Of a DNA stretch of 32,421 nucleotides, positions 14,109 to 32,421 are shown piece by piece. A model generated the notes under the pieces. That model made no database searches. It was not told where the DNA came from and saw only the letters and a list, made by a program, of their open reading frames with translations. Made by a program: the position numbers and the translations under genes. Source of the stretch: an uncultured Planctomycetales bacterium. GTDB taxonomy: Bacteria > Planctomycetota > SZUA-567 > JAFGNG01. Each line of letters starts with the position of its first letter. The first letter of the stretch is position 1. Location of the stretch: contig CAZKKD010000002.1 in the NCBI GenBank assembly GCA_964553265.1, positions 1-32,421 on the forward strand. The letters are read 5' to 3'.

Positions 14109-14208
14109 AATACGGTTCAGCTAAGCGGTGGCACGGCCATCTTGGCCGTGGAATCATGGGCTGGAAGCCCATGCCACGACGCACCGGTCGTCTTAACTGA
14201 ACCGTATT
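14109..14208. repeat. 100-bp element bounded by 17-bp inverted repeats and enclosing two 7-bp GC stem-loops (MITE-like element or structured RNA)
   Basis: Left arm aatacggttcagctaag (14109-14125); right arm cttaactgaaccgtatt (14192-14208); 16/17 positions are complementary. Internal hairpins are cacggcc-atctt-ggccgtg (14132-14150) and catgggc-tggaa-gcccatg (14155-14173). The hexamer cctaac occurs 3 nt outside each arm (14100-14105 and 14212-14217). Confidence 0.5.
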
Positions 14209-15178: not shown

Positions 15179-16074
15179 TTCCTCCGGTACAGGTTGCGGG
15201 CGTCGTTGATCACCATCCGGCCGGCGTAATTGCTGCCGTCCAGGTCGGCCGGGCCCAGCGCTTCGCTGTGGCCGTCGAAGAAGCTGACGCCGATCCGGCC
15301 CCCGTGGCGGAAAGCGGGAAAGCGAAGCTCCTCGCCCACCGAATCGCCGACGAGAAACGTGTCGTTCGGGTGGCTCAGCTCGGAGAGGCGGTGGACCACC
15401 GGATCCGGGACGGTGCGGCCGAGCGTGCCGTCCCAGCGGAAGTTGCACGGGAAAGCATACCCCTGCCCGCGGTTGCCGTTGACCTGGTAGTGGCTCCAGA
15501 TGCGCAGCCGACGGGCCGTCGATCCCTTGTACGCCACGTGGGCCGAGGGGCCGCCGTCAAAGCAGGTCGAGCCGGTCGCGCCGTTGCGCCAGACCGCCGT
15601 CCGCTTCACCTGGTTCGACTCCCCCCATTTGGGTGTCAACGCGGCCGCCGCCGGGCAGTTGAGAATGTCGCTGGTCCAGTGATCCCCGGTCCAGTCGCCG
15701 ACCAGTTCGCCGCTGATGAAGAGCGAACTGAGGCCGGGGTACTCCTGCGGACCGACCGTGTGACCCGAGCTGTTGAACTCGAACCAGTAGTAGGGATGGA
15801 GGATATCGTCGTAGTTGCCGACGTAGATGAGCATCGCGGTCGCCTGCTGGCGCGCATTGTTCTGGCAGTGGATCGTCTGCGCCGCTTCCTGCGCCGCTTC
15901 GAGTGCGGGCAGGAGCAACCCCGCCAGCACGCTGATGATGGCGATCACGACCAACAGCTCCACCAAGGTAAAACCGCGGCGGACTGCGCGGGCGGAACCC
16001 GCCGGGGCCTGCGTCCCCCGCCGCAGGGGGGCGGCGCCGGGGTCGCGTCCTTCATCTCCATACCGGTTTCGCAT
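15175..16074 (-). CDS. Prepilin-type N-terminal cleavage/methylation domain protein with an H-X9-DG C-terminal motif (299 aa)
   Basis: ORF 15175..16074 (-). AGGAGG lies 7 nt upstream. [27 protein letters not shown] follows a 33-aa leader. The C-terminal [17 protein letters not shown] is H-X9-DG. Confidence 0.85.
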
Positions 16075-17475: not shown

Positions 17476-17649
17476 AGCGGATCCCCCGGCTCGGGTGCGC
17501 GCCGCGGACCGGACCGCCGGCCGCGACGGGCACCTATGACGCGCGCGACGGCCCGAAGGTCGCCGCGCGCAATGGGTTCGTTTCGAAGCGGACGCCGTCG
17601 GGCGCCCCCGGACGACGCCGCGGATGCAGGCGCACGGGCACGCGAACGC

Positions 17650-17865
17650 TCAGGCCGCGGCTTCCTCGCCTTCGGCCTGGTCCTTCTTCTTCTTCTTCCT
17701 GGCCATGCGCTTCATGGAGCGCACCTTGGGCAGACCGAAGACGGAACCCTCTTCCGGGCTCCAGCGTTTGCTGTCCTGCAGCTTGTCGAGGCGCTCGACG
17801 CGGGTCAGGACGTTGCGGTGGCGCGCCAGGGTATTGGTGGAGCGCAGGCTTCTGTGCAGACTCAT
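17650..17865 (-). CDS. Small basic protein (71 aa), resembling the PVC/Chlamydia 'small basic protein' family
   Basis: C-terminal part of ORF 17650..18165 (-). The start is at MSLHRSLRSTNTLARHRNVLTRVERLDKLQDSKRWSPEEGSVFGLPKV (ATG 17865), with GAGGAA 7 nt upstream. The HRNVLTR.ER...L.....W......GLPK pattern and the Lys-rich tail match my memory of that family. Confidence 0.6.
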   Translation of the reverse strand: MSLHRSLRSTNTLARHRNVLTRVERLDKLQDSKRWSPEEGSVFGLPKVRSMKRMARKKKKKDQAEGEEAAA

Positions 17866-17931
17866 GGGTACGTTCCTCAAAGACTCCTGCCATGCCCCTT
17901 CCCTGCGGGGCTGGACGATTGGAAGCAGAAC

Positions 17932-17960
17932 CGTATACCACGACGGGGCAGGCTTGTAAA
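17932..17960 (-). promoter_or_regulatory. Candidate sigma70-type promoter for the small basic protein gene
   Basis: On the minus strand: TTTACA (17960-17955), a 17-nt spacer, then TATACG (17937-17932), about 65 nt upstream of ATG 17865. Confidence 0.35.
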
Positions 17961-18353
17961 GCGTTTTCCCTTCCTTTTCCGTCCGCAGGCGGCGGATTTC
18001 CGGCCCCCCGCTCCGGGACCCGTCTCCGGGAGCGGCGCGCAGGGCGGCGGGCGCGACCCGGGCGGTCGGGATCGACGACGATTCCCCACGAAATCGCCAG
18101 GCTTTTCCGGAAACGAAACCCGGCTTCGGCACAGTGGACAGAACCGGACACGCGTCGGCGGCCACTGCCCCGGATCCGGCACATCAACCGATCGTCATTT
18201 TCTTGTACGAAAGCCTGCCATGCATTCGCAAGACAGGCGAACCGGCGGCACACCACCGGGATTGTCCGAAACGCACAGATCCCGCACAGCGACTCCACCG
18301 CGGACCTGAAGGCCCAACGCCTGGCCCGCCTGCCGAAGGGCAACAGATCCGAG

Positions 18354-18383
18354 TTGACAAACAGGGATGGATCAGACTACGAT
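18354..18383 (+). promoter_or_regulatory. Candidate sigma70-type promoter for the giant-gene cluster
   Basis: A perfect TTGACA (18354-18359), an 18-nt spacer, then TACGAT (18378-18383). This would give a leader of about 180 nt before ATG 18568. Confidence 0.3.
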
Positions 18384-18567
18384 GGACAAAACAAGTCCTG
18401 TTATTGCTTTCGTTTGCGACCGAAACAACGGCAGCGATGCGCCAGCGGTCCGACGCGCATCAGCATGGCGGCAGCGGTCCGGACAGGCCGGGCGCTCTCC
18501 CGCCGCGACGCATCGACTTCACACGGGTGGCGGAACCATACCACGCACGGATAACGGAGGAGCGAAC

Positions 18568-21500
18568 ATGAGGTACTCCGAAACGGGGTTCTGGAACTGG
18601 CTGATCGCGGCTTCCCTGCTGATCCTGGCGACGGCGGGCGCGGCCGATGCCGGCGAATTCGACCAGGCGCGCGCCGCCCTGGACGCCGGCGAGTACCAGA
18701 AGGCCGAGGATCTGCTGGAGAAGGAGCTGGCGAAGGCTTCCCCCGCCACGGAGGCGCTGGAGATCAGCATGCAGGCCGCGATGAAGAGCGGCCGCGTGGT
18801 CACCGCCCAGAAGCGGGTGAGTGCGCTGATGAAGGTGAAGGGCACGAGCGACCCCGACTTCGTGCGCCAGGCCGCCGAGATTGCCCAGCGCGCCGGCGAA
18901 GAGGCCAACGCGCTGCAGCGCTACCGCGAGTACCTCCGCTCCAACCCGCCGAAGAGCCCCGAGCTCCGGGTCGCGCTGGTGAACATGCTCAAGCTCGATC
19001 CGGACGTGGCCGCCTACAAACTGCTGGTCAACCAGTTCGGCGGCGCCGAGCAGGCCTGGTTCATCGGCGCGAACCAGCTGCAGCGCCTCTTCTACGAAAA
19101 GCGGTCCGGCGAAGGGCTGGAGCTGGCCGCCTTTCTGCTGGCGAAATACCCGGACGTTGACCACGTCAACTTCGTCCACGAACAGGTGAGCGACGCCGCG
19201 CAGAACCACCGCATCACCGGCGGCGCGCGCGACCGCTTCGTCAAGCCCCTGCAGGTGCTGCTGCAGAGCAAGCCCTCGACGGTGGAGCACCTCCTCTACC
19301 TCTTCGGCGAAGCGCGCCAGCACGCGATGAAGCCCGACGAGCGCCTCAAGGCCGCGCTCAAGATCCAGTCCCTGGCGGGCACGCCCCTGCCGGCGGATGC
19401 CTTCGAAGGCTTTCACGACATGCGCGGGCTGCAGAGCGAGGCCGACCGCGTCGGCGCCGGGCAGGCATTCCTCAAGCTGGATACCATTTACAAGAACAGC
19501 GCGGACCCGGCGGATTATGCCCGCTACGTGCGCGTGATCACCGACTCGCCCGAGGTCTTCGCCATCCCCGGCAAGCCGCTCTTGAACGCCGGCGCCGTGC
19601 AGGAGATGGTCCAGGCGCTTGTCCAGAAAAACGCCGGCCAGGCGGCCCCCTACGACCACCACATCCGCCAGGTGGCCGAGCACTACATCAAGGACCCGGG
19701 CGCGAAGGTGGCGTTCCTCCAGCGCTTCGCCGCCGGCTGTCCCGCGCAGGGGCCGTCGGTCACGATGCTGATGGAGGTCATTCCCGACCAGGCCTTCCCG
19801 CCCTTCGCGGCGGCCTACGCCAAGCAGCACGGCCTGCAGGAAACCGTGATCCTGAAGGCGCAGGGCCTGCCGATCTACAAGCGTCTCGGCGACAAGGCGG
19901 CGCTGCTCCAGGCCGCGCGCGACTACGTGACCACCTACCCCGGCAGCTTCGACGCCAAGCTGGTCTCCGAAAACGTGCTGGAGAGCGACCTCCTGACGCC
20001 GGACGAGAAGCTGGGCCTCGTGGAGGATGTGCTGCGCAAGGGCGGCCCCGGCAACCCGGCGCGCAACCTGGTGGGCAAGCTCTCCCCCTACAAGGGCAAC
20101 GCCAAGTACCAGACCGTCGTGGAGCTGAGCAAGGACGAGGACGGCGGCACCGACCCGGTGATGAAGACGCACGCCCGCATCTGCGCCATCGCCCCCAACC
20201 CCCGCAGCCCCAGCAAGCGGGTCTACGACATTGCCGAAGCGTTCCTGAAGACCTACCAGGGCGCCGTCCCCGGCGGTCGTGAACAGGTCACCTCCACGGC
20301 CGACGCCACCGCGCACGACATCTTTGTCAAGCACATGGAGCACGTCTACGAGAACCCCGGCGAGATTGCCCGCTGCGCCAAACTCTGGGCGCCGCGCCTG
20401 AGCATGGGGTCGGACTGGACGCGGCTGGTGGGCCGCGTGCGGCGCCTGCGGGGCTACGAGACGCTCAACGACATCGCCCCGCACTTCCTGGCGCTGGTCG
20501 AACAGGACGCAAAGCCGGACAACGAGCTCTGGACCGAGATGTCCTTCGCCCAGACGCCCCGCGGCGCCGATCAGAAGACGTCGGTCTTCGCCAAGGTATA
20601 CGAGCGCATGGGGGCGAACAACGCCCTCCGCTACGTCCACGACATGAACCGCGGCAGCTGGCCGCCGGAGCTGTACTTCTTCGAGCTGAGCAAGGTGCTG
20701 ACGCTTCCGGACATTGCCGACGCGTCCTGGGGGCGGATCCGCTCGGTCTCCAACGAGGTGACCCGCCGCGCCCGCAACCAGAAGCCGCCCGCCGAACTGG
20801 GCCAGGGGCTCTGGGCCTACTACACCAGCACGCGCCTGTCCAAGGACCTGCGCGACCTCGGCTTCGAGGCCGAGGTGTACGCCCAGCTCGCCCGCGGCGG
20901 CAACGACCAGGCCGCCGCCGCCTGGCTGGACCAGTACCGCAAGCTGCTGGACCAGCGCACCCCGCGCGGACGGGTGCAGGCGCTGTCGAACCTGCTGGGG
21001 TACCTCCCCCGCGAGCGGAACAACCTGCAGCCCGGCCGCCAGCACCACATGGCGATCAAGGTGATCGGCCCGATGCTCGCCAGCCTCCCGGCCGACGCGC
21101 ACCGGATGGTCTACATCCGCGGCTCGCTGCTGGACGCGATCGAGCATTACCTCAAGGCCGCGCCGCCCAACGAGCCGGAGCGGAAGACCGCCGAGGCCCT
21201 GCAGGCCACCATCGGCGACGTGCTGATCAACGGTGCGTCCTGCGAAGACGGCCGCAAGGCCCTCCCCTGCGTCCGCGACGCCGCCCTCGCCGCGGCGGAG
21301 AAGCTGGACTGGGACCGGCTCGGCCGGGTCAACGAGGCCCTGCCCCGGATCCTCGGCTGGAGCAACGACTGGAACGCCAACGTCAACATCGTCGTCAAGC
21401 CCCTCGCCGACAAGCTGATGGAGAAGGGGGCGCACGAGTTTGCCTACGTCCTCTCCAGCAACCTGGAGAAGAAGACGCGCATGCCCGGCAACGTGCGCGA

Positions 21501-24500
21501 GAACCTGACCCTCATCGAGACCGAGGCCCTCGGCAAGATGGGCGTGCAGCTTATCGACGCGAACAAGGGCAGCGCCCTCTACGACCTCAGCATGGCCGAC
21601 CACTTCTACCAGCGCGAGAACGTCGCCAAGGCGTGGGAGCTCGCCCGGCCGAAGCTGAACCTCGTCGCCGACAACTGGCAGAGCCTGACCCAGCCCTTCG
21701 TGGCCTGGCTCATCGACCGGATGCGCAAGACCCGCGAAGAGGACATGATGAAGGACGCGGTCAACCTCGCCCGCACGGTGCTCCTGAAGGAGAACGAGCT
21801 CGACAAGGCGACCGCCGCGCAGATCTATCTCAGTCTCGGCGATGTGCAGCGCGACCGGCAGAACTACCAGGCCGCCCGCATCGAGTACGAGAGCCTGCGC
21901 AACAACGAGGCGCTGAGCGCGACCCAGGCCGGCTCGATGGCGAAGTTCCGCCTCGTGGAGCTCCTGATCCTGACGCAGAACTACGGCGACGCCGAGCTGC
22001 AGCTTGAGCGCCTGCTGGACGCCGCCGACCCCGAGACGCGGGCGGAAGCGTACTACTACCTGGGGCTCCTGTCCTTCAGGCAGGAAGACTTCGAGACCGC
22101 CCGCGACTACGTGGCCGAGGTGCTGAAGCTGGAGATGTACCACGCCGAAGCGCGCCTGCTGGGGGCGGAGATCCGCCTGCGCATGCGCGATCTGGGCGAC
22201 CCGGACGTGGAGCTCACCCCGGCGCTCCTGGCCGACACCATCGTGCCGACCAAGGTGCTGGTGCTCAAACTGCGCGACCCGAACCTCGGCATCGTCCGGG
22301 CCGGGAGCTTCGTTCCGGTGACGGTCTACACCACCAAGGGGCGCGACAGCGAGGAGGTGAAGCTCTTCCCCTCCACCAGCGACCCCACCCTCTTCCGCGG
22401 CGAGATCCGCACCGACCTCGGCAAGGCCACCCCCGGCAACACCAAGCTGGAGGTGAACGGCGGCGACCAGGTGATGTACATCATCAGCAAGGACTACCAG
22501 GAAGCCAACGGGCTCGACTTCCCGGCCAAGGAACTCGCCATCAAGGCCGACGCCCACCTCGCGGCCAGCAGCGGCGAAATCCTTACCCAGGAAGAGGAGG
22601 AGAAACGCGAGCTCGAGGCCCGCATGCGCCGCCTCGCCGGCGAGCAGGAGGACGAGACCGCCCTCCGCGACCGCGTGCGCGACCAGCGGACCATCCGCCC
22701 GGGCAGCCCCATCTACCTGCAGGTCATCGACTACGACCGCGATCTCGGCGACGAGACTGACACCGTCACCGTGACGCTGAAGACCAGCAGCGGCGACATC
22801 CTGGAGGGCTTCTCCCTCAAGGAGACCGAGCCGCACAGCGCCATCTTCCGCGCCCAGGCGCCCACCGGCCTGCCGCTGCCGAAGGCCGAGGCCTCCGACA
22901 CGCGCGAGGGCGGCCCGCCGCCGGCGGTGCTCATCAACACCCAGCGCAACGAGGTCTGGTCCAGCGTCCCGGACGGCGAACGCCCGAAGAGCGTCGAGGT
23001 GGACACCATGACCTCCGTCCAGGTCGAGAAGGTGGCCCTTCAGGTCGCCGACGGCACCGAGATCCGCAAGCTCCGCCTCGAAGGCTCGCTCATCGAGGGC
23101 TTCCAGACCATCGCCGCCTACCCCGAAGAGACCGGCGGCGCGACCGGGGGGCTCACCCTCACCCTCGCCGACGGGCCGAAACGCGGCGACACCGCCATCG
23201 CCAGCCTGCGCAGCTACCTCCGCGCCAACAGCGACTACAAGGCGCCCCAGCAGGTGAGCTTCTACGACCGCAACAGCACCCCCCGCCGCGGCAACCGGTG
23301 GATCACCGCCGGCGTGAGCGGCGTCTTCTGGATGCCGCAGACCGAGACGCTGGAGTTCAAGTTCCTCCAGGAGCCCAGCCCCGGCGGCATGCAGACCGCC
23401 TATTTCCTCATCGACGGGAAGACCGTCCTCGGCGGCAAGATGGACGCCTTCCGCATCAATTTCACCAAGCGCGTCACCCTGGAGAAGGGCGCGCACCGGC
23501 TGGAGCTGCTCGTGCGCGACTACCCGAGCACCAGCCGCGTGGTGGTGGGCTACAAGCAGCCGGACGGCACCTATGCGGCGCTGCCGGAGAGCTGGTTCAG
23601 CGTCACCGAGCACCCCGAACTCGCCGACGCGCTCAAGCCCAAGGCCAGCATCCAGCGTGAGGGCGACACCTTCACCGCCGTCTTCAACAAGCCGGCCCGC
23701 CTGCGCAAGCTGCGCTGGACGGTGGACGACTACGCCGGCGAAGCCGTGGCGGCCAAGACCTTCACCGTCGTCGCCGACGGCGGCAAGACCATCGTCCCCG
23801 CCGAAGACGACTTCACCAGCGGCACCCAGAACAAGACCCTCGAGATCGCCCCAGGCGACCGCATCACCGTCGCCTACGAGGACGAGAAGAACACCCGCGG
23901 CGGCGACCCCGTCCTCACCGAGAACCTCAACGCCAGCTTCTACAACGGGGCGCTGGAACTCGTGAAGGAGAACATCTACACCGACGAGCGCGGCGAACGC
24001 CGCACCGTCCTCTTCCACGCCCGCCGCTGCAAGGCCGGCGACCAGGTGCTCGTCCGCATCGAGGACTGGGACCTCGACGTCTCCGACGAACGCGAGAAGG
24101 TGCCCTTCGTCGCGCGCACGAGCTCGGGCGAAGAGCTGACCCTCGAAGCGCTCGAAACCGGCCGCGACGAGGAGATGCACGACCACGCCGGCGTCTTCGT
24201 CCAGCGGCTGCGCTTCGGCGACCAGACCGGCGGCAACACCCTGAAGGTCCAGCCCGGCGACACCATCACCGTCTCCTATCTCGACCGCGAGAACACCGAC
24301 CCCGGCATCCCGATCGACCGCGAGGCCGTCGTCGAGGAGGCGAGCGGCGAGGACGCCTTCTTCACCGTCTACCGGACCTCCATCCAGATGGTCCCCGACG
24401 AGAGCCCCGCCGCCCAGGCGCGGCTGAAGCGCCTCGCGCAGGAGCTCGGCGAGGAAGAGGCGAAGAAGGTGGAGATCCTCCGGCCGCAGATCATCGCCGC

Positions 24501-26217: not shown

Positions 26218-26249
26218 CCCGGCGCCAGACCGCAAGGAGGAGGAGCGCA

Positions 26250-27854
26250 ATGACACGGACACCGACACGCACCCTTCATCGCCTCTGCCTGGCGGCGGTG
26301 GCCTGGGCCCTCTGCTTGGGGCTCGCGGCGCCGGCGGCGCGGGCGGACTGGAACTGGAAGCTCACCGGCGACCAGATCCAGCTGCTCACCGCGTTCGAGG
26401 AGCAGCAGTACAAGAAGGCGGAAAAGCTCGTCGATTCCCGCAAATTCGACGCCGCCGCCGCCGAGTTCGAGAAGTTCCGCGTCCGCTTCGAAGACTCCGA
26501 CCTCATCCCCTACGTCCTCTTCCTGCAGGCGCACAGCCTCCACAAGGCGGCCAAGCGCAACAATGCCATCCGCATGTACCAGCAGGTGATCGATTACTTC
26601 GGCTATGACATCAACGCCGCCGCCCCCGCCAAGTACTGGCAGGGCAAGGCCCACCTCGACAACGGCGACACCCTGAAGGGCCTGAAGGTGATGCAGCAGA
26701 TGGTGGAGCACCCGGACTACAAGTACCACCCCCTCGCCGCCGGCGCGCTGCGGTACCTCGCCGACAACCACTGGACCAAGGAAGAGTACGAGCCGGCCAT
26801 CCGCTACTACAAGCAGATCTGGGACGACTTCTACCGCGAGAACAAGCAGGCCGTCCAGCACGCCGAGAACATGATCATCGGCTGGTACGTCTGGCAGAAG
26901 GACTACGACGGCTTCGAGGACTGGTACGTCGGCGACGACGTCCGCGTCGGCAAGACCCGCCTGCAGATGGAGGCGGCCAAGCGCGCCTGGGACGTGGCGC
27001 ACCACGGCTTCGCCGGCGACTGGGGCGGCCGCTACCCCAACACCAGGATCCGCGAGAAGCGCGACGACATGGAGGCGTTCTACAAGTACTTCCAGCGCCG
27101 CCGCGAAGAGTTCGAGCGCTCGGCCAACATCTGGGACTGGTACGACCGCGCCATCCAGTTCACCGTCTACCGCCACGGCGGCCCGAACAACACGTACCGC
27201 GACGAGCTGATCGACGAGGCGCTCGCCTACATCGCCAAGCAGTACGACGGCGAACCGGAGCAGGCGAACAAGAAATACGTCTGGCTCGGCGACCGCCTGC
27301 GCGACATCAAGCAGTTCGAGAAGGCGAAGTTCTGCTACAGCAAGCTCACCGACCCCAACCTCTACGCCTGGAAGAGCTACGAGATGACCGGCCGCTACGA
27401 GGGCAAGTGGCAGGACGCGGTCAAGTTCCTCGAGCAGATCGAGGCCAGCGGCAACGAGGAGTGGGTGATGCGCGCCCAGCGCGAACACGCCAACGTCTTC
27501 AAGGACCGCCTCGGCAAGTACGACGAGGCGATCAAGCTCTACCGCATCATCAACGACCCGCCCTGGAGCATCTGGCAGATCGTCGACGCGCACCTGCGCG
27601 CCAAGCAGCACGAACAGGCCGTCACCCGCCTGCGCGAGATGGAAAACTTCTTCCCGAAGGAGGCCTCCCAGGCGGCCTACAAGATCGCGAAGATCAAGGA
27701 AGGCAACGGCGACAAGGACGGCGCCATCGCCAGCTGGCGGCGTATCCTCAAGGTCTACCCCGGCAGCCGCGAAGCCAGCCGCTCGCACCAGGACCTGGAG
27801 CGCTACGGCATCGAGACCGGCGGCGGCGTGATGGATGAAGCGGACCTCAAGTAA
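26250..27854 (+). CDS. Exported all-alpha TPR-like protein (534 aa)
   Basis: Frame of ORF 25776..27854 (+). The start is at MTRTPTRTLHRLCLAAVAWALCLGLAAPAARA|DWNW (ATG 26250), with AGGAGGAGGA upstream, 32 nt after the giant gene stop. It contains Trp/Tyr-rich helical repeats (YWQGKAHLDNGDTLKGLKVMQQMVEHPDY..., AAYKIAKIKEGNGDKDGAIASWRRILKVYPGSREA). Confidence 0.85.
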   Translation: MTRTPTRTLHRLCLAAVAWALCLGLAAPAARADWNWKLTGDQIQLLTAFEEQQYKKAEKLVDSRKFDAAAAEFEKFRVRFEDSDLIPYVLFLQAHSLHKAAKRNNAIRMYQQVIDYFGYDINAAAPAKYWQGKAHLDNGDTLKGLKVMQQMVEHPDYKYHPLAAGALRYLADNHWTKEEYEPAIRYYKQIWDDFYRENKQAVQHAENMIIGWYVWQKDYDGFEDWYVGDDVRVGKTRLQMEAAKRAWDVAHHGFAGDWGGRYPNTRIREKRDDMEAFYKYFQRRREEFERSANIWDWYDRAIQFTVYRHGGPNNTYRDELIDEALAYIAKQYDGEPEQANKKYVWLGDRLRDIKQFEKAKFCYSKLTDPNLYAWKSYEMTGRYEGKWQDAVKFLEQIEASGNEEWVMRAQREHANVFKDRLGKYDEAIKLYRIINDPPWSIWQIVDAHLRAKQHEQAVTRLREMENFFPKEASQAAYKIAKIKEGNGDKDGAIASWRRILKVYPGSREASRSHQDLERYGIETGGGVMDEADLK

Positions 27855-27913
27855 CGATTCGGAGCAGAGACGAAACCGGAAGATCCCCGGCCCGATACGG
27901 AAGGAGCCCTGCA

Positions 27914-30190
27914 ATGACGAAGCAACCGTTCTTCTCCGCGCGTTCCTGGCGGCCCGCCCTGGCGGCGGCGCTGCTGGTCGGCCTCCTGTCGAGCGGGCTG
28001 GCCCACGCGGCCGCCGGCCCCGGCGGCCGGCAGCGGCTGACCGAGGAGCAGAAGCAGGAGTTCCAGGCCAACGACATGATCCGCAAGGGGATGGACTACC
28101 TGGAGCAGAACCTCGAGGAGCAGGGCATCAAGCTCATCCGCGACGTGCCGCGGATGTACCCGAAGACCGAGGCCCGCTTCAAGGCCTACCTGGAGCTCGG
28201 CAAGTACCTCGTCGACAAGCGCCGCTTCGAGGAGGCGATCAAGAACCTCCGCGAGGTCAACGCCAGCGAGGACGCCGACCAGCGCGCCGAGGCCATCTAC
28301 CAGATCGGCATCTCCTACTACGGCCTCAACCAGTTCAGCCAGGCGTTCGCCTCGCTCCAGAAGGTGATCGACGAGTACCCCTGGAGCGTCTACGCCAACG
28401 AGGCGTACTACTACATCGGGCTCTGCCACTTCAAGCTCGAACGCTGGGCCAAGGCGATCGACGCCCTCCGCATGGTGGGCACCAGCGTCCCGCCCAAGGA
28501 GAAACTCGCCGAGGCCGCCGACGGCAAGTACCGCGCCGAGGCCGGGCAGCGCTTCTACATCCGCGTCTTCGACAAGGACCTCATCGTCCTGCCGCAGCTC
28601 GGCGAAGACCTGCCGGTGGATCTCGCAACGAAGAACGGCGACTCCGAGCGCATCATCCTGGAGAAGCTCGACCGCCAGGGCGAGTACTACATCGGTTCGC
28701 TCCCCAGCGGCCCGGGCAAGCCCAAGACCGGCGACGGCATCCTGCAGGTCGCCAGCGGGGATATCGTCAACGTCACCTACACGGACCGCAATACCGCCGA
28801 GGGCGAGCGCGACCGCAAGCTGCTCGCCCAGGCGCAGCTGGTCTCCACCGCGTCGGGCGGCTTCACCGACGGCGCCTTCAAGGAGTACGTCCAGGGCATT
28901 TATCTCGACGACGACTGCTTCATCCGCGTCCGCGATCTCGACCGCGACATCAGCGACGACCGCGACCGCCTGACCATCACCCTCACCACCGAATACGATC
29001 CCGACGAGGAGCGCCGCCAGGCCGAGGGCGAGGACGCCGCACCCGCCATCACCCGGGGGGTCGACCTGGACGCCGCGCCCGACTACGAGCAACGCGACCG
29101 CATCGAGATCGAGTTGGAGGAGACGGGCCCGCACACCGGCGTCTTCACCGGGGTCACCACCGTCAAGCCCATCACCGAGGGCGTGGAGGTGAGTTCCGGC
29201 GACACGGTGCTCCACGCGCGGCTCTCCGATCGACTGAAGCTGGAGTACATCGACGAGCTGCACATGCTCGACTACGAGCCCCGCCGCGTGGAGGTCACCT
29301 CCGCGCTGGTGACCGGCAGCCGCACCGACGTCCAGGTCACCAACAACATCGCCGACAACCTCGATCACGAGGCGCGCAAGAACCTGATCGAGTCGAAGCT
29401 CTATCTCGAGCTCGGCCGCATCTTCAAGGACGTTGGCCTCGACCAGAAGGCGGGCGAAAAGGCGCAGGAAGGCATCGACCGCGTCGACAGGATCATCGCC
29501 AATTACCTGAAGGATCTCCCCCTCGACCGCACCCTCGTCGAGGAGGCCTTCAGCGTCAAGTGGGAGCTTCTGCTGGTGCAGGACCGCCTCTCCGAGGCCA
29601 TCCGCGTCTGCCACACCCTCACCCAGGTCTTCCCGAAGACCAGCCTCGTCGACAAGGCCCTCTTCACCATCGGCAAGGCGAAGATGGAGGAGGACGGCCG
29701 CGACAGCGGGCGCGAGGCCATCGGCATCTTCACCAGCATCCTCCGCCTGCCGGAGAGCGACTACAAGGCCGAGGCGCAGTACCTCATCGGCCAGATCCAC
29801 GAAAAGGCCGCCATGGCCCGCATGGCCCAGACCGGCCAGCGCGACCGCCAGGCCCTCGGCCAGGCGCTCACCGCCTACCAGAAGTGCGCCGACACCTACC
29901 CCGACAGCCCGATGGCCGGGGAGGCGCTGGACAAGATCGCCAACTTCTACATCGAGGACAAGCAGTACCGCCGCGCGGTGGAGTTGTTCGAGCGCATCTT
30001 CCTCGAGCACCCGCACGCGGAGTGGCTGGACAAGATGCTCCTGAAGTGGGGCATCGCCGCCTACCGGATGAAGAATTTCCAGATGGCGCGCGAGAAGTTC
30101 GACCAGATCGTCGTCGAATACCCCTCCAGCCCCGAAGCGGCCAAGGCGCGGAAGTTCCTGCAGGTGGTGGAACGCAAGCTCGGCGGGTGA
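27914..30190 (+). CDS. Exported TPR / acidic beta-module / TPR protein (758 aa), a smaller architectural paralogue of the giant
   Basis: ORF 27914..30190 (+). AAGGAG lies 7 nt upstream. The signal peptide is MTKQPFFSARSWRPALAAALLVGLLSSGLAHA|AA. The N-terminal TPRs include AEAIYQIGISYYGLNQFSQAFASLQKVIDEYPWSVYANEAYYYIGLCHF. The modules are FYIRVFDKD... and CFIRVRDLDRDISDDRDRLTITL...IELEETGPHTGVF. The C-terminal TPRs include AEAQYLIGQIHEK... and PMAGEALDKIANFYIEDKQY. Confidence 0.88.
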   Translation: MTKQPFFSARSWRPALAAALLVGLLSSGLAHAAAGPGGRQRLTEEQKQEFQANDMIRKGMDYLEQNLEEQGIKLIRDVPRMYPKTEARFKAYLELGKYLVDKRRFEEAIKNLREVNASEDADQRAEAIYQIGISYYGLNQFSQAFASLQKVIDEYPWSVYANEAYYYIGLCHFKLERWAKAIDALRMVGTSVPPKEKLAEAADGKYRAEAGQRFYIRVFDKDLIVLPQLGEDLPVDLATKNGDSERIILEKLDRQGEYYIGSLPSGPGKPKTGDGILQVASGDIVNVTYTDRNTAEGERDRKLLAQAQLVSTASGGFTDGAFKEYVQGIYLDDDCFIRVRDLDRDISDDRDRLTITLTTEYDPDEERRQAEGEDAAPAITRGVDLDAAPDYEQRDRIEIELEETGPHTGVFTGVTTVKPITEGVEVSSGDTVLHARLSDRLKLEYIDELHMLDYEPRRVEVTSALVTGSRTDVQVTNNIADNLDHEARKNLIESKLYLELGRIFKDVGLDQKAGEKAQEGIDRVDRIIANYLKDLPLDRTLVEEAFSVKWELLLVQDRLSEAIRVCHTLTQVFPKTSLVDKALFTIGKAKMEEDGRDSGREAIGIFTSILRLPESDYKAEAQYLIGQIHEKAAMARMAQTGQRDRQALGQALTAYQKCADTYPDSPMAGEALDKIANFYIEDKQYRRAVELFERIFLEHPHAEWLDKMLLKWGIAAYRMKNFQMAREKFDQIVVEYPSSPEAAKARKFLQVVERKLGG

Positions 30191-30241
30191 CGACGGGAGC
30201 GAACCACCTCTCACAACCGTCCCGATCCGGGCGCGGTTGGG

Positions 30242-30271
30242 CCGGCGGCGCGAAAGACTCGGCGCCGCCGG
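30242..30271 (+). promoter_or_regulatory. Perfect 10-bp GC hairpin in the 169-nt spacer between the structural genes and exbB
   Basis: ccggcggcgc (30242-30251) pairs with gcgccgccgg (30262-30271) around the loop gaaagactcg. There is no U-tract afterwards, so it is more likely an RNA stability, processing or attenuation element than a strong terminator. Confidence 0.35.
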
Positions 30272-30359
30272 TGACAATAGGTAAGAGGAGAACGTGTCGC
30301 CGCCCGGGGGAACTGCCGGGTCGGCTCGGAAACGGATCCGGAAGGGCAAGGGAGCCAGC

Positions 30360-31010
30360 ATGTTACAGTACATCCTCGACGGCGGTTTCGTGATGTTTCC
30401 CCTCATGGTGCTCTCGGTGCTCGCCGTGGCCATCATCGTCGACCGCAGCCGCGCGTTCCGCCTCGCCCGGGCCGACAGCTCGGCCCTGCGCAAGGAGGTG
30501 ATCCGCCGGCTGGAGGAGGGCGAGATCGACGCCGCCATGCAGGCCTGCCAGAAGACCAAGGGCCCCGTCGCGGCCGTCCTCCTGGTGGGGCTGCACAAGT
30601 TCCGCCAGCTCGCCGCCCGCGGCCGCAAGCTGGCCGACATCGAGGAGGGCGTCAACAAGACCATGGCCGACTACGCCCCCCACGTCATCGAGGCCCTGGA
30701 GAAGCGCCTCAACCTGCTGGTGATGATCGGCAGCGTCGCGCCGCTCCTGGGCATGACGGGGACGGTCACCGGCATGATTGCCGCCTTCGCCGAGATGCGC
30801 GAGTCCGGCGTCCAGGGCGAGGCCGTCGCCGGCGGCATTTCCGAGGCGCTCATCACCACCGCCACCGGCCTCATCGTCGCCATGCCGGCGGTGGTGGCCT
30901 ACAACGTCTTCGCCAAGCGCGTCGACCGCTACGTGCTGGAGATCGAGGAGATGGCCACCAACCTCATCGACTTCATCACGCTGCAGCACAGTGACGGGGA
31001 CGAGGAATAG
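30360..31010 (+). CDS. exbB: MotA/TolQ/ExbB-family proton channel subunit (216 aa)
   Basis: Frame of ORF 30294..31010 (+). The start is preferred at MLQYILDGGFVMFPLMVLSVLAVAIIVDR (ATG 30360, GGAG 5 nt upstream). The conserved core is IGSVAPLLGMTGTVTGMIAAF...GGISEALITTATGLIVAMPAVVAYNVF. The stop is TAG. Confidence 0.9.
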   Translation: MLQYILDGGFVMFPLMVLSVLAVAIIVDRSRAFRLARADSSALRKEVIRRLEEGEIDAAMQACQKTKGPVAAVLLVGLHKFRQLAARGRKLADIEEGVNKTMADYAPHVIEALEKRLNLLVMIGSVAPLLGMTGTVTGMIAAFAEMRESGVQGEAVAGGISEALITTATGLIVAMPAVVAYNVFAKRVDRYVLEIEEMATNLIDFITLQHSDGDEE

Positions 31011-31043
31011 CCAGGCGCGCCGTCCGCGCCGGAAGGAGTCGCC

Positions 31044-31475
31044 ATGCGACTGAGCCGAAAGGATCGCGCCGACGCCGACATCGACGTCGGGTCGTTCTCC
31101 GACATCGCGTTCCTGCTCATCATCTTCTTCATTCTCACCTGCACCTTCCTCCGGCCCGCGGGCGAAGAGGTGCGGGTGCCGTCCGGCAAGTCCGACCCGG
31201 AACAGGACAGCAGCGAAAAGCAGCCCACCGTCAACGTCAACGCCGACGGCATCCTCTGGAATGGCGAGGTGGCGATGGATCTTGAGCGGCTCCAGGAGAA
31301 GCCCAACTCGCTCAAGCTCCACCAGGCCGACAAGGACAAGCGCTCCGTCATCCTCGACTGCGCCGACGAGGTGTCCTACCAGACCTACTTCGACGTCTGC
31401 ATGGCCATCACCAAGGCCGGCGGCGTGGTCGCCCTCATGGAGCACGACGAGGGCGGAGGAGGCGAGGGCCCATGA
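31044..31475 (+). CDS. exbD: ExbD/TolR-family subunit 1 (143 aa)
   Basis: ORF 31044..31475 (+), with a GAAGGAG RBS. The N-terminal TM carries the conserved Asp: DVGSFSDIAFLLIIFFILTCTF. A periplasmic domain and an acidic/Gly tail follow. Confidence 0.88.
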   Translation: MRLSRKDRADADIDVGSFSDIAFLLIIFFILTCTFLRPAGEEVRVPSGKSDPEQDSSEKQPTVNVNADGILWNGEVAMDLERLQEKPNSLKLHQADKDKRSVILDCADEVSYQTYFDVCMAITKAGGVVALMEHDEGGGGEGP

Positions 31476-31879
31476 AGGTCGACCGCAAGCGCAAGTACAA
31501 GCTGATGGTCCCCATCGCGTCGATGGGCGACATCGCGTTTCTGCTCATCATCTTCTTCGTCCTCACCAGCCAGTTCATGCAGGAGCAGAACATCGAGGCC
31601 AAGCCGCCCGAAAACCCCACCATCGAGGAGATGGAGCCCATCCCCATCAGCCTCATCGTCGACGAGGACGGGCAGATCTACCTCAACGGCAACCCCATCC
31701 CCGTCCAGATGGTCGAGCCGGGCGTCAGCGTGCTCGTCCAGGACGCGGAGGACAAGCGCGTGATGGTGAAGATCCACAAGGACCTCCCGCACAAGCTGTA
31801 CGGCGAGGTGATGAAGGGCCTGAGCGAGGCGGGCGCGCGCATCGTCCTCGTCGGCCGGAAGACCGAGGCGAAGCTCTGA
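31472..31879 (+). CDS. exbD: ExbD/TolR-family subunit 2 (135 aa)
   Basis: ORF 31472..31879 (+). It has an ATGA start/stop overlap with subunit 1. The TM is PIASMGDIAFLLIIFFVLTSQF. The periplasmic part is clearly diverged from subunit 1. Confidence 0.88.
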   Translation: MKVDRKRKYKLMVPIASMGDIAFLLIIFFVLTSQFMQEQNIEAKPPENPTIEEMEPIPISLIVDEDGQIYLNGNPIPVQMVEPGVSVLVQDAEDKRVMVKIHKDLPHKLYGEVMKGLSEAGARIVLVGRKTEAKL

Positions 31880-31890
31880 GCCGCCCGGTG

Positions 31891-31913
31891 CGCGCCCGGA
31901 GCGTCCGGACGCG
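31891..31913 (+). promoter_or_regulatory. GC-rich intercistronic hairpin between exbD2 and the Zn-ribbon TonB-like gene
   Basis: cgcgcccgga (31891-31900) pairs with tccggacgcg (31904-31913): 9 bp plus one C/A mismatch, with a 3-nt loop. Confidence 0.25.
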
Positions 31914-31976
31914 CGCGCGGGAACGCCAGACCGATCGCGACATCCTGTTGCGGAAGCGGAAGAACGGGGAGCCGAG

Positions 31977-32421
31977 ATGAGCGAAAAAATTGTCGTCGAA
32001 TGCACCTGCGGAAAGCGCTACAAGGCCACCGCCGACAAGATCGGCAAGAAGATGAAGTGCAAGGCCTGCGGCGAACCCTTCGAGATCCAGCCCGTCGAGG
32101 ACGACGAGGCGCCCGCCGCCGCGGCGAACGAGAACGCGGACGAGCAGGAGAACACCGCCGCCCCCGACGAGTACGCCCCCGACCTCCCGGCCTTCAAGCC
32201 GGCCAAGCGGCTCAAGCTCGCCGTCGACACGCCCAAGGTGCACCCCGACACCCTCATGGCCGAGATCGCCCGCCCCGCCATGGGCCGGAGCCTCGGGCTC
32301 TCGGTGGCCATCCATGCCGTCCTCCTCGGCGCCACCTCGGTCGGCTTCATGAACGGTTACGCCAGCCACGCCAGCAAGTACGGCACCTGGCACCTGCCCA
32401 CCATCCGCGAGAAGAAGGCCC
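31977..32421 (+). CDS. Zinc-ribbon protein with a TonB-type (S-x3-H) transmembrane anchor; the C-terminus lies beyond the window
   Basis: Not in the ORF track (no stop). Hand translation from ATG 31977 (GGGGAG 5 nt upstream) gives MSEKIVVECTCGKRYKATADKIGKKMKCKACGEPFEIQPVEDDEAPAAAANENADEQENTAAPDEYAPDLPAFKPAKRLKLAVDTPKVHPDTLMAEIARPAMGRSLGLSVAIHAVLLGATSVGFMNGYASHASKYGTWHLPTIREKKA... C9-x-C11...C28-xx-C31 forms an MJ0042-like Zn ribbon. LGLSVAIHAVLLGA mirrors the E. coli TonB anchor LLSVCIHGAVVAGLL. Confidence 0.7.
   Translation, partial: MSEKIVVECTCGKRYKATADKIGKKMKCKACGEPFEIQPVEDDEAPAAAANENADEQENTAAPDEYAPDLPAFKPAKRLKLAVDTPKVHPDTLMAEIARPAMGRSLGLSVAIHAVLLGATSVGFMNGYASHASKYGTWHLPTIREKKA

What the first reader, a model, noticed from the sequence alone, without database searches (positions are those of the whole stretch)
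18568..32421. Seven-gene envelope cluster: a 2,549-aa exported TPR/beta-module giant and two exported TPR partners linked to a 1 ExbB : 2 ExbD : Zn-ribbon-TonB motor (Agl/Glt-core-like?)
Seen in the sequence: seven same-strand genes with gaps of 32, 59, 169, 33, -4 and 97 nt. All three large proteins have Sec-type signal peptides (ADA|GE, ARA|DW, AHA|AA). No TonB-dependent receptor, SusD-like, TolB or Pal gene is visible in the window.

Established knowledge: ExbB/ExbD and TolQ/TolR complexes are PMF-driven stators that energise a TonB/TolA-type transducer. In Myxococcus xanthus the Agl-Glt gliding machine uses one TolQ-like protein (AglR) and two TolR-like proteins (AglQ, AglS). It also uses large TPR proteins (GltD/AgmU, GltE/AglT, the giant GltI/AgmK) and TonB-like GltG/GltJ. 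GltJ carries an N-terminal zinc-ribbon. A conserved 'core' of these genes with unknown function has been reported outside myxobacteria.

Inference: this cluster has the same parts list (giant TPR, smaller TPRs, 1 Q-like, 2 R-like, ZnR-TonB-like) in what looks like a PVC-type genome. It is therefore more likely a PMF-powered envelope-spanning machine (surface transport, adhesion or motility, or envelope remodelling) than a nutrient-uptake TonB system. I know of no characterised system with this composition in that lineage.
Basis: partly seen in the sequence, partly recalled or inferred. Interest (0 to 1): 0.85.

Follow-up and report, generated by a model that had tools for sequence, protein, structure and literature searches.

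The report
Conserved PVC proton-motor envelope operon
The window ends in a widely conserved but uncharacterised operon of Planctomycetes/Verrucomicrobia-type bacteria. It joins a Tol/Exb-type proton motor to unusual membrane anchors and to three exported scaffold proteins, one 2,549 residues long, so it is a real and probably new variant of a force-transmitting envelope machine whose job is unknown.

Summary
Seven same-strand genes sit at the stated coordinates: a 2,549-aa exported giant, two exported TPR proteins, one TolQ/ExbB-like gene, two ExbD/TolR-like genes, and a Zn-ribbon membrane protein cut by the contig end.

There are three corrections.
- Full-length relatives of gene 7 (242 and 257 aa) have no TonB C-terminal domain. 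They have a Zn-ribbon, one TonB/TolA-like helix with a conserved His, a charged linker and a short acidic tail.
- The Zn-ribbon is present in only some orthologues.
- In relatives an eighth gene follows: a polytopic membrane protein ending in DUF4159.

The unit is strongly conserved. Of 56 related loci with enough flank, 51 link giant and G3, in genomes of 36-72% GC, all labelled PVC-type. No TonB-dependent receptor, SusD, TolB or Pal gene is conserved beside it.

The Agl-Glt reading is an architectural analogy only. GltI is cytoplasmic and restricted to Myxococcales, the GltJ model fails (at most 21.5 bits against a 450-bit cut-off), and no outer-membrane Glt genes are linked.

The closest published descriptions are the PVC "TPR, tolQ-like, two tolR-like, vWA transducer" loci (different transducers, tested) and Akkermansia MUL1 (homology untestable here). 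I rate it a new variant of a known kind, function unknown, interest about 0.6.

The parts
18354..18383 (+). Promoter-like site TTGACA-18-TACGAT, about 185 nt upstream of the G1 start
   Evidence: It is the only sigma-70-like match in 17400-32421 (0.8 expected by chance), so it is weak on its own. Its position supports the 18568 start rather than the 18367 ATG.
18568..26217 (+). G1: exported giant of 2,549 aa. Layout: signal peptide (aa 1-28), family-specific helical region (to about aa 1085), TPR (about 1087-1205), string of about 10-12 beta-sandwich domains (about 1210-2290), C-terminal YbgF/BamD-like TPR (about 2300-2549)
   Evidence: TIGR02795 103 bits against a 90.1 cut-off; the N-terminal 1,130 aa has only 156 relatives among 1.84 billion representatives, nearly all in giants. 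AF2 pLDDT 73.9; best Foldseek matches are the Nitrosopumilus S-layer protein 8c8m (E 1e-23) and alpha-2-macroglobulin MG domains.
22195..25437 (+). Beta-sandwich (Ig/MG-like) string inside G1, with repeated D-x-D-x-D-x-SD...ETG..(S/T)G.F modules and a weak discoidin (F5/8 type C) match
   Evidence: PF00754, E 5.7e-4, below cut-off; Kustd1514 S-layer model, E 1e-6; modules shared with G3.
26250..27854 (+). G2: exported TPR protein of 534 aa
   Evidence: Conserved next to G3 in relatives.
27914..30190 (+). G3: exported 758-aa protein. Layout: TPR (44-186), two beta-sandwich domains (189-310 and 314-466), TPR (483-755). It is a small paralogue of the C-terminal half of G1
   Evidence: (TIGR02795 114 bits against 90.1; BamD model 100 against 81), (AF2 pLDDT 82.5; at least 159 clusters; 282 hits in GTDB species genomes).
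30360..31010 (+). G4: TolQ/ExbB-like proton-channel subunit (216 aa)
   Evidence: PF01618, E 9e-30. TolQ model 133 bits, ExbB 87, both below equivalog cut-offs. PDB TolQ E 1.4e-17, ExbB 4.6e-16.
31044..31475 (+). G5: ExbD/TolR-like subunit (143 aa) with the conserved transmembrane Asp (SFSDIAFLLIIFF)
31472..31879 (+). G6: second, divergent ExbD/TolR-like subunit (135 aa) with the transmembrane Asp (SMGDIAFLLIIFF). Its start overlaps G5 by 4 nt
31977..32421 (+). G7 (cut by the contig end; 242 aa in a 95%-identical relative). Layout: cytoplasmic Zn-ribbon (aa 1-40), acidic linker, 'HPDTLM' motif, one TMH (about aa 104-126, LSVAIHAVLLGATSVGF, S-x3-H...TS), then a K/E/A-rich segment and an acidic C-terminal tail. 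No TonB_C domain

Best explanation
The cluster is the 5' seven-eighths of a conserved eight-gene PVC operon for a proton-motive-force-driven envelope machine of the Tol/Exb/Agl class.

Shown.
- G4 plus a G5/G6 pair have the sequence hallmarks of a 5:2 stator: one Q-like protein and two different R-like proteins, both with the proton-binding Asp.
- G7 is a bitopic inner-membrane protein with a TonB/TolA-like helix (S-x3-H...TS, His nearly universal in orthologues) but no C-terminal globular domain. It ends in a short conserved acidic motif.
- G8, absent from the window because the contig ends, is a polytopic membrane protein with a conserved juxtamembrane segment and a C-terminal DUF4159 domain.
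- G1-G3 are Sec-exported, mostly non-lipidated scaffold proteins. They are built from YbgF/BamD-type TPR modules and Ig/macroglobulin-like beta-sandwiches.

Inferred.
- The stator docks the G7 helix (and perhaps the last G8 helix) as ExbBD docks TonB.
- Proton flow pulls or rotates these anchors.
- The force reaches the periplasmic G1-G3 scaffold through the G7 acidic tail, lodged in a TPR groove as TolA binds the CpoB/YbgF TPR domain, and/or through the G8 DUF4159 domain.
- My preferred output, held at low confidence (about 0.35), is a Tol-like housekeeping role in organising or constricting the outer layers of the envelope. This would apply in lineages where tolB-pal lie elsewhere and no TolA has been found.
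- The main alternative output is energised handling or import of large glycans.
For: Motor: Pfam, NCBIfam and PDB matches and the conserved transmembrane Asp.

Operon reality: order G1-G2-G3-G4-G5-G6 is conserved at 35-60% identity in about 55 of 80 GTDB loci, and a permuted order G2-G3-G1-G4-G5-G6 occurs in about 11. Of 56 loci with full flanks, 39 are canonical with G8 and 12 are permuted. GC across the loci ranges from 36% to 72%. Nothing is conserved beyond G8, and upstream genes differ between loci.

G7: full-length relatives; TMH His present in about 47 of 53 orthologues and a conserved acidic tail; Zn-ribbon profile best matches the GltJ Zn-ribbon.

G8: a homologous gene follows G7 in 50 of 55 loci; DUF4159 at E 1e-31 to 1e-34; PDB 4i66 at E 1e-5; an Arg-rich loop before the last TMH implies a periplasmic C-terminus.

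Scaffold: TIGR02795 (YbgF) scores exceed the trusted cut-off in G1 and G3; AF2 models; Foldseek; signal-peptide-like N-termini are conserved.

Tol-like context: a published survey found tolB-pal elsewhere in Lentisphaerae and Kiritimatiella and could not find TolA (PMC12204202 supplement).
Against:
- A profile of the G8 helix plus juxtamembrane segment finds no TonB or TolA in the PDB. The TonB-likeness of G8 therefore rests on a short motif only.
- The G7 motif (S-x3-H-x6-TS) is not the exact SHLS spacing.
- G4 scores below the equivalog cut-offs for both TolQ and ExbB.
- Against the Tol-like output: two different TolR-like subunits are typical of Agl and of the PVC vWA loci, not of Tol. G7 lacks TolA domain III. 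Planctomycetes are reported to lack Pal, yet Phycisphaerae-labelled MAGs carry the operon.
- Whether the source genome has a second tolQR locus could not be checked.
Confidence: 0.6

Rival explanations
1. Glycan or macromolecule import machine, a functional analogue or distant relative of Akkermansia MUL1. The motor would energise capture and transfer of large polysaccharides or glycoproteins into the periplasm of PVC bacteria that lack SusC/D-type systems. The Ig/discoidin-bearing giant would act as the periplasmic binding track.
For: - A. muciniphila mul1A (Amuc_0544) is called a mucin transport gene (PMC12570417).
- Its RefSeq neighbours are annotated hypothetical (0543-0545), ExbD/TolR (0546), hypothetical (0547) and MotA/TolQ/ExbB (0548) (PMC11480725 supplement).
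- Mucin accumulates in intracellular 'mucinosomes' in a process that requires MUL genes.
- G1 has a weak discoidin match, and relatives carry PF00754 or PA14.
- Neighbouring genes are often CAZymes.
Against: - Homology of Mul1A or Mul1B to G1-G3 could not be tested, because no Akkermansia sequence was reachable.
- MUL1 gene order differs, and no DUF4159 gene is annotated there.
- MUL1 synteny is reported absent from aquatic Akkermansiaceae (PMC13174399), whereas this operon is present in a marine Akkermansiaceae MAG (L062 and L088-L090).
- No outer-membrane channel gene is linked.
- The architecture is uniform across very different habitats, without the variation expected of substrate-specific systems.
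- CAZyme neighbours are expected by chance in these genomes.
Confidence: 0.25
2. Agl-Glt-type surface motility or adhesion machine, or a member of the Glt 'core complex' family.
For: - One Q-like plus two R-like subunits, as in AglRQS, with TPR partners.
- Two TonB-like anchors per motor recall GltG and GltJ.
- The G7 Zn-ribbon profile has the GltJ Zn-ribbon as its best PDB match (E 2.3e-5).
- A weak GltJ-model hit over the TMH region of one orthologue (E 1e-4).
Against: - The GltJ model scores 5.7-21.5 bits against a 450-bit cut-off.
- There is no TonB C-terminal domain.
- The Zn-ribbon is optional in the family, and it belongs to the widespread Zn_ribbon_4 type.
- GltI and GltJ are Myxococcales-only and GltI is cytoplasmic, whereas G1 is exported.
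- No GltA/B/H/K/CglB-like outer-membrane genes are linked.
- The described core complex was found in Proteobacteria and Fibrobacteres only.
- Orthology to GltD, GltE, GltC and GltG was not testable here.
Confidence: 0.1
3. An ordinary TonB-type nutrient-uptake energiser whose TonB and receptors are encoded elsewhere. The TPR genes would then be merely adjacent.
For: ExbB-ExbD-ExbD gene sets with nearby TPR genes are common in bacteria (my own knowledge, not tested here). G4 matches ExbB almost as well as TolQ in the PDB.
Against: - The TPR/giant genes, G7 and G8 stay linked to the motor across dozens of species and two gene orders.
- No TBDT or TonB_C gene lies in or next to the operon in any locus examined.
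- There is a 4-nt overlap and short gaps inside the cluster, and no terminator-like site in the intergenic gaps; the two + strand matches lie within coding sequence.
Confidence: 0.05

Closest known systems
PVC 'vWA force-transducer' loci (Tichowtungia aerotolerans type; Mol Biol Evol 2025, PMC12204202)
   Same: - PVC lineage.
- Gene order TPR gene, tolQ-like, two different tolR-like genes, then two non-canonical membrane-anchored transducers.
- Transducer TMH with an SHLS-type motif and a conserved His.
- Function unknown.
   Different: - The Tichowtungia transducers end in a vWA-like domain. They show no sequence similarity to G7 or G8 and no hit in the window or in any of the first 85 loci.
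- Here one anchor has no C-terminal domain at all, and the other is polytopic with DUF4159.
- The published description mentions one TPR gene, not a 2,500-aa giant plus two further scaffold proteins.
Tol-Pal system (TolQ-TolR-TolA-TolB-Pal-CpoB)
   Same: - G4 is closest to TolQ.
- The G7 layout (TMH with Ser/His, then a K/E/A-rich helical segment) resembles TolA domains I and II.
- G1 and G3 carry YbgF/CpoB-type TPR modules that score above the TIGR02795 cut-off.
- JGI names relatives 'TolA-binding protein'.
   Different: - No tolB or pal in the operon.
- No TolA domain III.
- Two different TolR-like genes.
- TPR proteins of 534-2,549 aa with Ig-like strings, against about 260 aa for CpoB.
- An extra DUF4159 membrane protein.
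Myxococcus Agl-Glt gliding machinery and its 'core complex' (aglRQS + gltDEGC)
   Same: - 1 Q : 2 R motor composition.
- Periplasmic TPR partners.
- Two TonB-like anchors.
- An N-terminal cytoplasmic Zn-ribbon of the same broad type as in GltJ.
   Different: See the membership test. There is no TonB C-terminal domain, the GltJ model fails, the giant is exported and rich in beta-sandwiches (GltI is cytoplasmic and all-TPR), the scaffold proteins are not lipoproteins, no outer-membrane components are linked, and DUF4159 is present.
Akkermansia muciniphila MUL1 (Amuc_0543-0548)
   Same: A Verrucomicrobial locus that combines ExbB and ExbD genes with unannotated proteins described as a periplasmic complex. 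It is required for mucin import.
   Different: - The annotated gene order differs.
- No DUF4159 gene and no giant are annotated.
- Homology was not testable here.
- The reported distribution conflicts with this operon's presence in a marine Akkermansiaceae MAG.

Membership tests
Agl-Glt machinery / Glt core complex | One TolQ-like (AglR) plus two different TolR-like (AglQ, AglS) subunits | tested here: met
   G4 is MotA_ExbB. G5 and G6 are two divergent ExbD/TolR proteins, both with the transmembrane Asp. This shows composition only; orthology to AglRQS was not tested.
Agl-Glt machinery / Glt core complex | TonB-like transducers (GltG, GltJ) with a TonB C-terminal domain | tested here: not met
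   Full-length G7 relatives (242 and 257 aa) have no Pfam TonB_C and no globular C-terminus. The NCBIfam GltJ model NF033761 scores 5.7-21.5 bits against a 450-bit cut-off.
Agl-Glt machinery / Glt core complex | GltJ-type N-terminal cytoplasmic Zn-ribbon | tested here: inconclusive
   A profile of 14 G7 Zn-ribbons finds the GltJ Zn-ribbon (7zok) as its best PDB match, E 2.3e-5. However, the domain is the common Zn_ribbon_4 type and is missing from most G7 orthologues. No GYF domain is present.
Agl-Glt machinery / Glt core complex | Giant TPR protein GltI: cytoplasmic, all-TPR, Myxococcales-specific | tested here: not met
   G1 has a signal-peptide-like N-terminus that is conserved in the family, and it has about 1,100 aa of beta-sandwich domains. 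GltI properties are taken from PMC11761067 and PMC3169522.
Agl-Glt machinery / Glt core complex | Orthology of the periplasmic TPR proteins to the lipoproteins GltD, GltE and GltC | not testable with these tools
Indirect point: lipoboxes are rare in the G1 and G3 families, whereas GltD and GltE mature at Cys1.
Agl-Glt machinery / Glt core complex | Linked outer-membrane module (GltA/B/H/K, CglB) | tested here: not met
   Nothing is conserved downstream of G8, and upstream genes vary between loci.
Tol-Pal system | TolQ/TolR equivalogs | tested here: inconclusive
   The TolQ model is the best hit for G4 (133 bits) but falls below the 221-bit cut-off. TolR models score 29-35 bits against 127. In the PDB, TolQ gives E 1.4e-17 and ExbB 4.6e-16.
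Tol-Pal system | TolA with a C-terminal domain III | tested here: not met
   G7 has a TMH and a charged helical segment but no C-terminal domain.
Tol-Pal system | tolB and pal in the locus | tested here: not met
   They are absent from the window and from the conserved neighbourhood. In PVC they are reported at separate loci.
Tol-Pal system | CpoB/YbgF TPR protein | tested here: inconclusive
   TIGR02795 scores 103 bits (G1) and 114 bits (G3), above the 90.1 cut-off. These are summed repeat matches inside proteins 3 to 10 times longer than CpoB, and the full-length CpoB model NF008068 scores 35-37 bits against 383.
Ton system (ExbB-ExbD-TonB plus TonB-dependent receptor) | TonB with the TonB_C domain, and a cognate TBDT | tested here: not met
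   No TonB_C domain. No TBDT in the window or in the flanks of related loci.
PVC vWA force-transducer loci (PMC12204202) | TPR gene, tolQ-like gene and two different tolR-like genes in a row | tested here: met
   G3-G4-G5-G6. Published description.
PVC vWA force-transducer loci (PMC12204202) | Transducer with TMH (SHLS/His), linker and a vWA C-terminal domain, homologous to the Tichowtungia proteins | tested here: not met
   BLASTP of Tichowtungia transducer 2 against G8 shows no similarity. tblastn against the first 85 loci gives no hits and against the window only chance-level matches (E at least 0.42). G7 has the His-bearing helix but no C-terminal domain.
Akkermansia MUL1 | Homology to Mul1A (Amuc_0544) and Mul1B, and the same gene order | not testable with these tools
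   Only annotations were available, and the order differs. A metagenome scan seeded with the Akkermansiaceae G3 homologue found no A. muciniphila-like locus.

The most novel reading that the evidence does not exclude
This operon may define a PVC-wide class of proton-driven trans-periplasmic machine. In this reading a 5:2 stator acts through two anchors that have lost or replaced the TonB/TolA C-terminal domain: one ends in a short acidic peptide and the other in a DUF4159 domain. These anchors would move or tension a strut about 2,500 aa long, made of a helical solenoid, about ten Ig-like domains and TPR modules. If so, it could be the missing TolA/CpoB-equivalent of lineages where no TolA is found. 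Alternatively, it could be the long-sought engine of 'selfish' macromolecule uptake into the enlarged periplasm of Planctomycetes and Verrucomicrobia.
Probability: 0.3. Interest if true: 0.85.

Novelty: new variant of a known kind. Interest (0 to 1): 0.62.

Why it matters
Motors of the Tol, Ton, Agl and T9SS kind are the known ways diderm bacteria deliver energy to the outer envelope. Each newly characterised output has opened a field: nutrient import, outer-membrane constriction, gliding, secretion.

PVC bacteria are major polysaccharide degraders in oceans, soils and guts. A published survey (PMC12204202) found no TolA or TonB in some of them, reported no Pal in Planctomycetes, and left TolA unidentified in several other PVC lineages. 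They are also known to take large glycans into the periplasm by unknown machinery.

This operon is an eight-gene unit conserved in the examined PVC-labelled genomes, spanning 36-72% GC. It has a motor, two atypical anchors and a family-specific giant scaffold. That makes it a concrete, testable candidate for one of these missing functions.

The anchor that ends in a short peptide rather than a domain would also widen the known ways force can be coupled to a periplasmic partner.

Tried and rejected
- Exact look-up of G6 to extend the contig found nothing on record.
- The genome-collection scan with the G7 alignment found no relatives. G7 is too divergent for pattern seeding.
- The word-indexed protein search with the whole giant returned only 12 hits and missed the window's own protein. 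The exhaustive search with the N-terminal 1,130 aa was more useful.
- Foldseek of the G3 model returned only generic TPR proteins, which is not informative for function.
- Tichowtungia vWA transducers, typed from the paper's supplement, show no similarity to G8, the first 85 loci or the window. I therefore rejected the idea that this is the published vWA-transducer locus.
- A profile of the G8 last helix plus juxtamembrane segment against the PDB found no TonB or TolA. The 'motor-box' reading of G8 is kept only as a motif-level inference.
- Akkermansia MUL1 could not be tested. The primary paper (Davey 2023) is not held. Cluster look-ups of abundant gut G3 relatives gave Lentisphaeria/Victivallaceae or Verrucomicrobia labels, or none, and no Akkermansia. 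A metagenome scan seeded with an Akkermansiaceae homologue found no A. muciniphila locus. MUL1 homology therefore remains untested.
- Paralogous copies within one MAG (L031/L036 at 76% identity, L034/L047 at 90%) could be strain mixtures. This is not usable as evidence for multi-copy systems.
- There is no literature on DUF4159 beyond the Pfam paper.

Full report
**1. What is in the window**

The 32,421-bp window is a complete NCBI contig. The exact G3 protein is on record from a contig of that length. Its GC content is 67%.

| Gene | Coordinates | Size |
|---|---|---|
| G1 | 18568-26217 | 2,549 aa |
| G2 | 26250-27854 | 534 aa |
| G3 | 27914-30190 | 758 aa |
| G4 | 30360-31010 | 216 aa |
| G5 | 31044-31475 | 143 aa |
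| G6 | 31472-31879 | 135 aa |
| G7 | 31977 to the contig end | 148 codons present |

- The intergenic gaps are 32, 59, 169, 33, -4 and 97 nt.
- The G1 start at 18568 is preceded by GGAGGAG.
- The only sigma-70-like site in the region lies at 18354-18383.
- No terminator-like site lies in the intergenic gaps; the two + strand matches are within G1 and G6 coding sequence.
- Upstream genes are unrelated and mostly on the other strand: URO-D-like, GH2, GH3, GT4, a pseudouridine synthase, argG, a tRNA, two prepilin-type genes and an aminotransferase.
- No TBDT, SusD, TolB or Pal domain is present anywhere in the window.

**2. The motor**

G4 is a MotA/TolQ/ExbB protein (Pfam E 9e-30).
- Its best curated model is TolQ (133 bits). 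ExbB scores 87 bits, and both are below the equivalog cut-offs.
- In the PDB, TolQ (E 1.4e-17) and ExbB (E 4.6e-16) are nearly tied.

G5 and G6 are two divergent ExbD/TolR proteins. Both keep the transmembrane Asp that aligns with ExbD Asp25.

The '1 Q : 2 R' observation is therefore correct.

**3. Gene 7 is not a TonB**

A search with the truncated product found a 95%-identical, 242-aa protein and a 50%-identical, 257-aa protein. Both lie downstream of ExbB-ExbD-ExbD in their contigs.

Their layout is:
- a Zn-ribbon (C-x-C...C-x-x-C);
- an acidic linker;
- a 'DPDxLM' motif;
- one TMH (LSVVIHAVLLGITSVGF);
- a K/E/A-rich segment;
- an acidic tail.

They have no Pfam domain and no TonB_C.

Across 53 orthologues taken from related loci:
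- The TMH His is nearly universal, and the S-x3-H...(T/L)S pattern recalls the TonB/TolA SHLS motif.
- The C-terminus ends in a conserved short acidic motif (..IE..I.ETS.ERP..S..LD..D.L).
- The N-terminus is modular, with no, one or two Zn-ribbons and sometimes a long coiled coil.

A profile of 14 of these Zn-ribbons finds the solved GltJ (AgmX) Zn-ribbon as its best match among 177,635 PDB sequences (E 2.3e-5). However, the domain is the common Zn_ribbon_4 type, and the curated GltJ model scores only 5.7-21.5 bits against a 450-bit cut-off.

**4. An eighth gene lies beyond the contig end**

In 50 of 55 related loci the gene after G7 belongs to one family of about 550-600 aa.
- It has several N-terminal TMHs.
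- It has a strongly conserved juxtamembrane segment (Y.IP.GSG..VV..V.V.KK.KK...VLN.NSPI.FYRP).
- It has a C-terminal DUF4159 domain (E 1e-31 to 1e-34). The nearest structure is an uncharacterised Haliangium protein, 4i66.
- The last TMH carries S-x3-H-x6-L in most members and is preceded by an Arg-rich loop. The DUF4159 domain should therefore be periplasmic.

I read G8 as a second TonB-like anchor. This is motif-level only: a profile of the segment finds no TonB or TolA in the PDB.

Nothing is conserved after G8.

**5. The scaffold proteins**

G3 was modelled with 35 homologues (pLDDT 82.5). It has an N-terminal TPR (44-186), two beta-sandwiches (189-310 and 314-466) and a C-terminal TPR (483-755). 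G3 is a small paralogue of the C-terminal 1,450 aa of G1.

G1 has four parts:
- **N-terminal region.** The first 1,130 aa have no Pfam match except a sub-threshold TPR_19 hit near the N-terminus (aa 37-90) and the TPR block that begins at about aa 1087. This region has only 156 relatives among 1.84 billion representative proteins. Nearly all of them are the N-termini of giants.
- **TPR block.**
- **Beta-sandwich string.** About 1,100 aa are predicted as a string of 10-12 beta-sandwich domains (pLDDT 73.9). The best structural matches are the Ig-domain string of the Nitrosopumilus S-layer protein (E 1e-23) and macroglobulin domains of alpha-2-macroglobulin and complement. There are also weak discoidin and anammox S-layer matches.
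- **C-terminal TPR.** It is YbgF/BamD-like.

The giants have a strikingly constant length: median 2,560 aa, range 2,326-2,857.

The YbgF model TIGR02795 is exceeded by G1 (103 bits) and G3 (114 bits) against a 90.1-bit cut-off. The full-length CpoB model is not met.

Signal-peptide-like N-termini are conserved in both families, and lipoboxes are rare.

**6. Conservation**

The G3 family has at least 159 clusters at 90% identity and 282 confirmed hits in GTDB species genomes. Nearly all of the 80 listed are MAGs (two records carry no MAG tag). They are labelled Planctomycetota/Phycisphaerae, Lentisphaerae/Victivallales, Kiritimatiellia, Verrucomicrobiota including Akkermansiaceae, and occasionally Omnitrophota; one cluster in the protein search carried a Sumerlaeota label.

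tblastn of the window's proteins against the 80 returned loci gives the following:
- About 55 loci have the order G1-G2-G3-G4-G5-G6 at 35-60% identity.
- About 11 loci have the permuted order G2-G3-G1-G4-G5-G6.

Gene calls on long contigs confirm the permuted order and show G8 after the motor there too. One Verrucomicrobiae MAG has two giants in tandem.

After adding 80 metagenome loci, 56 loci have full flanks. Of these, 39 are canonical with G8, 12 are permuted, and only 2 lack both giant and motor.

The loci span 36-72% GC. Flanking genes differ from locus to locus.

This is a self-contained, long-conserved eight-gene unit.

**7. Comparison with known systems**

**Agl-Glt.** By the literature, the transferable 'core complex' is aglRQS + gltD/E/G/C. 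It was found in Proteobacteria and Fibrobacteres. gltI and gltJ are Myxococcales-specific (PMC3169522). GltI is cytoplasmic, GltD and GltE are lipoproteins, and GltG and GltJ end in TonB-like domains (PMC11761067). The tested defining features fail. What remains is an architectural analogy: a heteromeric motor, two anchors and TPR partners.

**Tol-Pal.** The motor is TolQ-leaning, G7 looks like TolA domains I and II, and the TPR modules are of CpoB type. However, tolB and pal are absent, and there is no TolA domain III. The supplement of PMC12204202 notes tolB-pal at separate loci in Lentisphaerae and Kiritimatiella, with TolA not found. This keeps open the idea that this operon supplies the missing transducer side.

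**PVC vWA-transducer loci.** The same paper describes in PVC a 'TPR gene, tolQ-like, two tolR-like, vWA transducer' arrangement of unknown function. This is the closest published description. It has no similarity to G8 and no hit in the window or in any of the first 85 loci. This operon is therefore a sibling, not the same family.

**Akkermansia MUL1.** mul1A (Amuc_0544) is a mucin-transport gene. It lies beside genes annotated ExbD/TolR (0546) and MotA/TolQ/ExbB (0548) and several hypothetical genes. The MUL genes are needed for mucin import into 'mucinosomes'. This is an attractive functional analogue. However, the gene order differs and no DUF4159 gene is annotated. MUL1 synteny is reported absent from aquatic Akkermansiaceae, whereas this operon occurs in a marine Akkermansiaceae MAG. 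I could not obtain Akkermansia sequences to test homology.

**8. Mechanism and verdict**

Shown:
- the motor components;
- the two membrane anchors;
- the exported scaffold proteins;
- their tight and conserved linkage.

Inferred:
- The stator binds the His-bearing helix of G7, and possibly that of G8.
- It transmits force to the G1-G3 scaffold through the G7 acidic tail in a TPR groove, and/or through the G8 DUF4159 domain.

| Output | Probability |
|---|---|
| Tol-like envelope organisation | about 0.35 |
| Energised glycan handling or import | about 0.25 |
| Gliding or adhesion | about 0.1 |
| Plain TonB energiser | about 0.05 |
| Something else | the remainder |

The finding is real and robust. 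Its Glt-like label is only partly right. It is best filed as a new variant of the Tol/Ton/Agl kind of proton-driven envelope machine. The family remains a good experimental target.

Noticed in passing
window 6800-8020 and 12400-14200: Two low-GC islands (about 0.60 and 0.58, against 0.67 overall). They hold small HTH_3 ORFs (7203-7691 +, 13060-13620 -) and a SecB-like ORF (12582-13178 -). These may be toxin-antitoxin or mobile-element remnants.
   Followed up: partly
window 10925-11011: A tRNA gene (Rfam, 53 bits) lies just upstream of, and overlaps, the longest ORF call for argG (10958-12373). The real argG start must be further downstream.
   Followed up: no
window 14321-16074 (- strand): Two tandem genes with prepilin-type N-terminal methylation motifs, typical of PVC genomes. 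The pili-dependent glycan uptake described in Akkermansia makes them worth a look.
   Followed up: no
window 1-6597: Two URO-D-like genes (1-885 and 2966-4405, - strand) flank a GH2, and a GH3 follows on the + strand. URO-D-like proteins in a CAZyme context are unexplained.
   Followed up: no
L087 10001-25308: A Verrucomicrobiae MAG carries two giants in tandem (2,617 and 2,469 aa) before the motor, plus a 112-aa gene between the giants and ExbB.
   Followed up: no
L005 / L017 1-8270: In a Phycisphaerales long-read MAG the giant is called as five consecutive ORFs (2,017 + 249 + 980 + 774 + 599 aa). This is probably due to frameshift errors rather than a real split.
   Followed up: no
G1 family (P0123-P0132, P0221-P0299): Giant length is nearly invariant: median 2,560 aa, range 2,326-2,857, n = 58, despite only 24-34% identity. 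This suggests that length is constrained, as for a molecular ruler or a strut spanning a fixed distance.
   Followed up: partly
G7 orthologues in L020, L022, L023, L028, L042, L050, L052, L053, L055, L057, L064: The cytoplasmic N-terminus of the anchor is modular. It has one or two Zn-ribbons and, in a Kiritimatiellia/Verrucomicrobiota-labelled group, a coiled coil of about 150 aa. Most other orthologues have none of these, which hints at lineage-specific cytoplasmic regulation of the motor.
   Followed up: partly
L076, L077: Contigs carrying the operon are labelled Flavobacteriaceae and Anaerovoracaceae. These are most likely mis-binned PVC contigs.
   Followed up: no
L004 / L030 (5.97-Mb Planctomycetota MAG): Here a shortened G3 homologue (611 aa) plus ExbB-ExbD-ExbD and a 90-aa G7-like stub stand without a giant, G2 or G8 nearby. 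GH31 and FGE-sulfatase genes lie upstream. This may be a decayed or minimal version.
   Followed up: no
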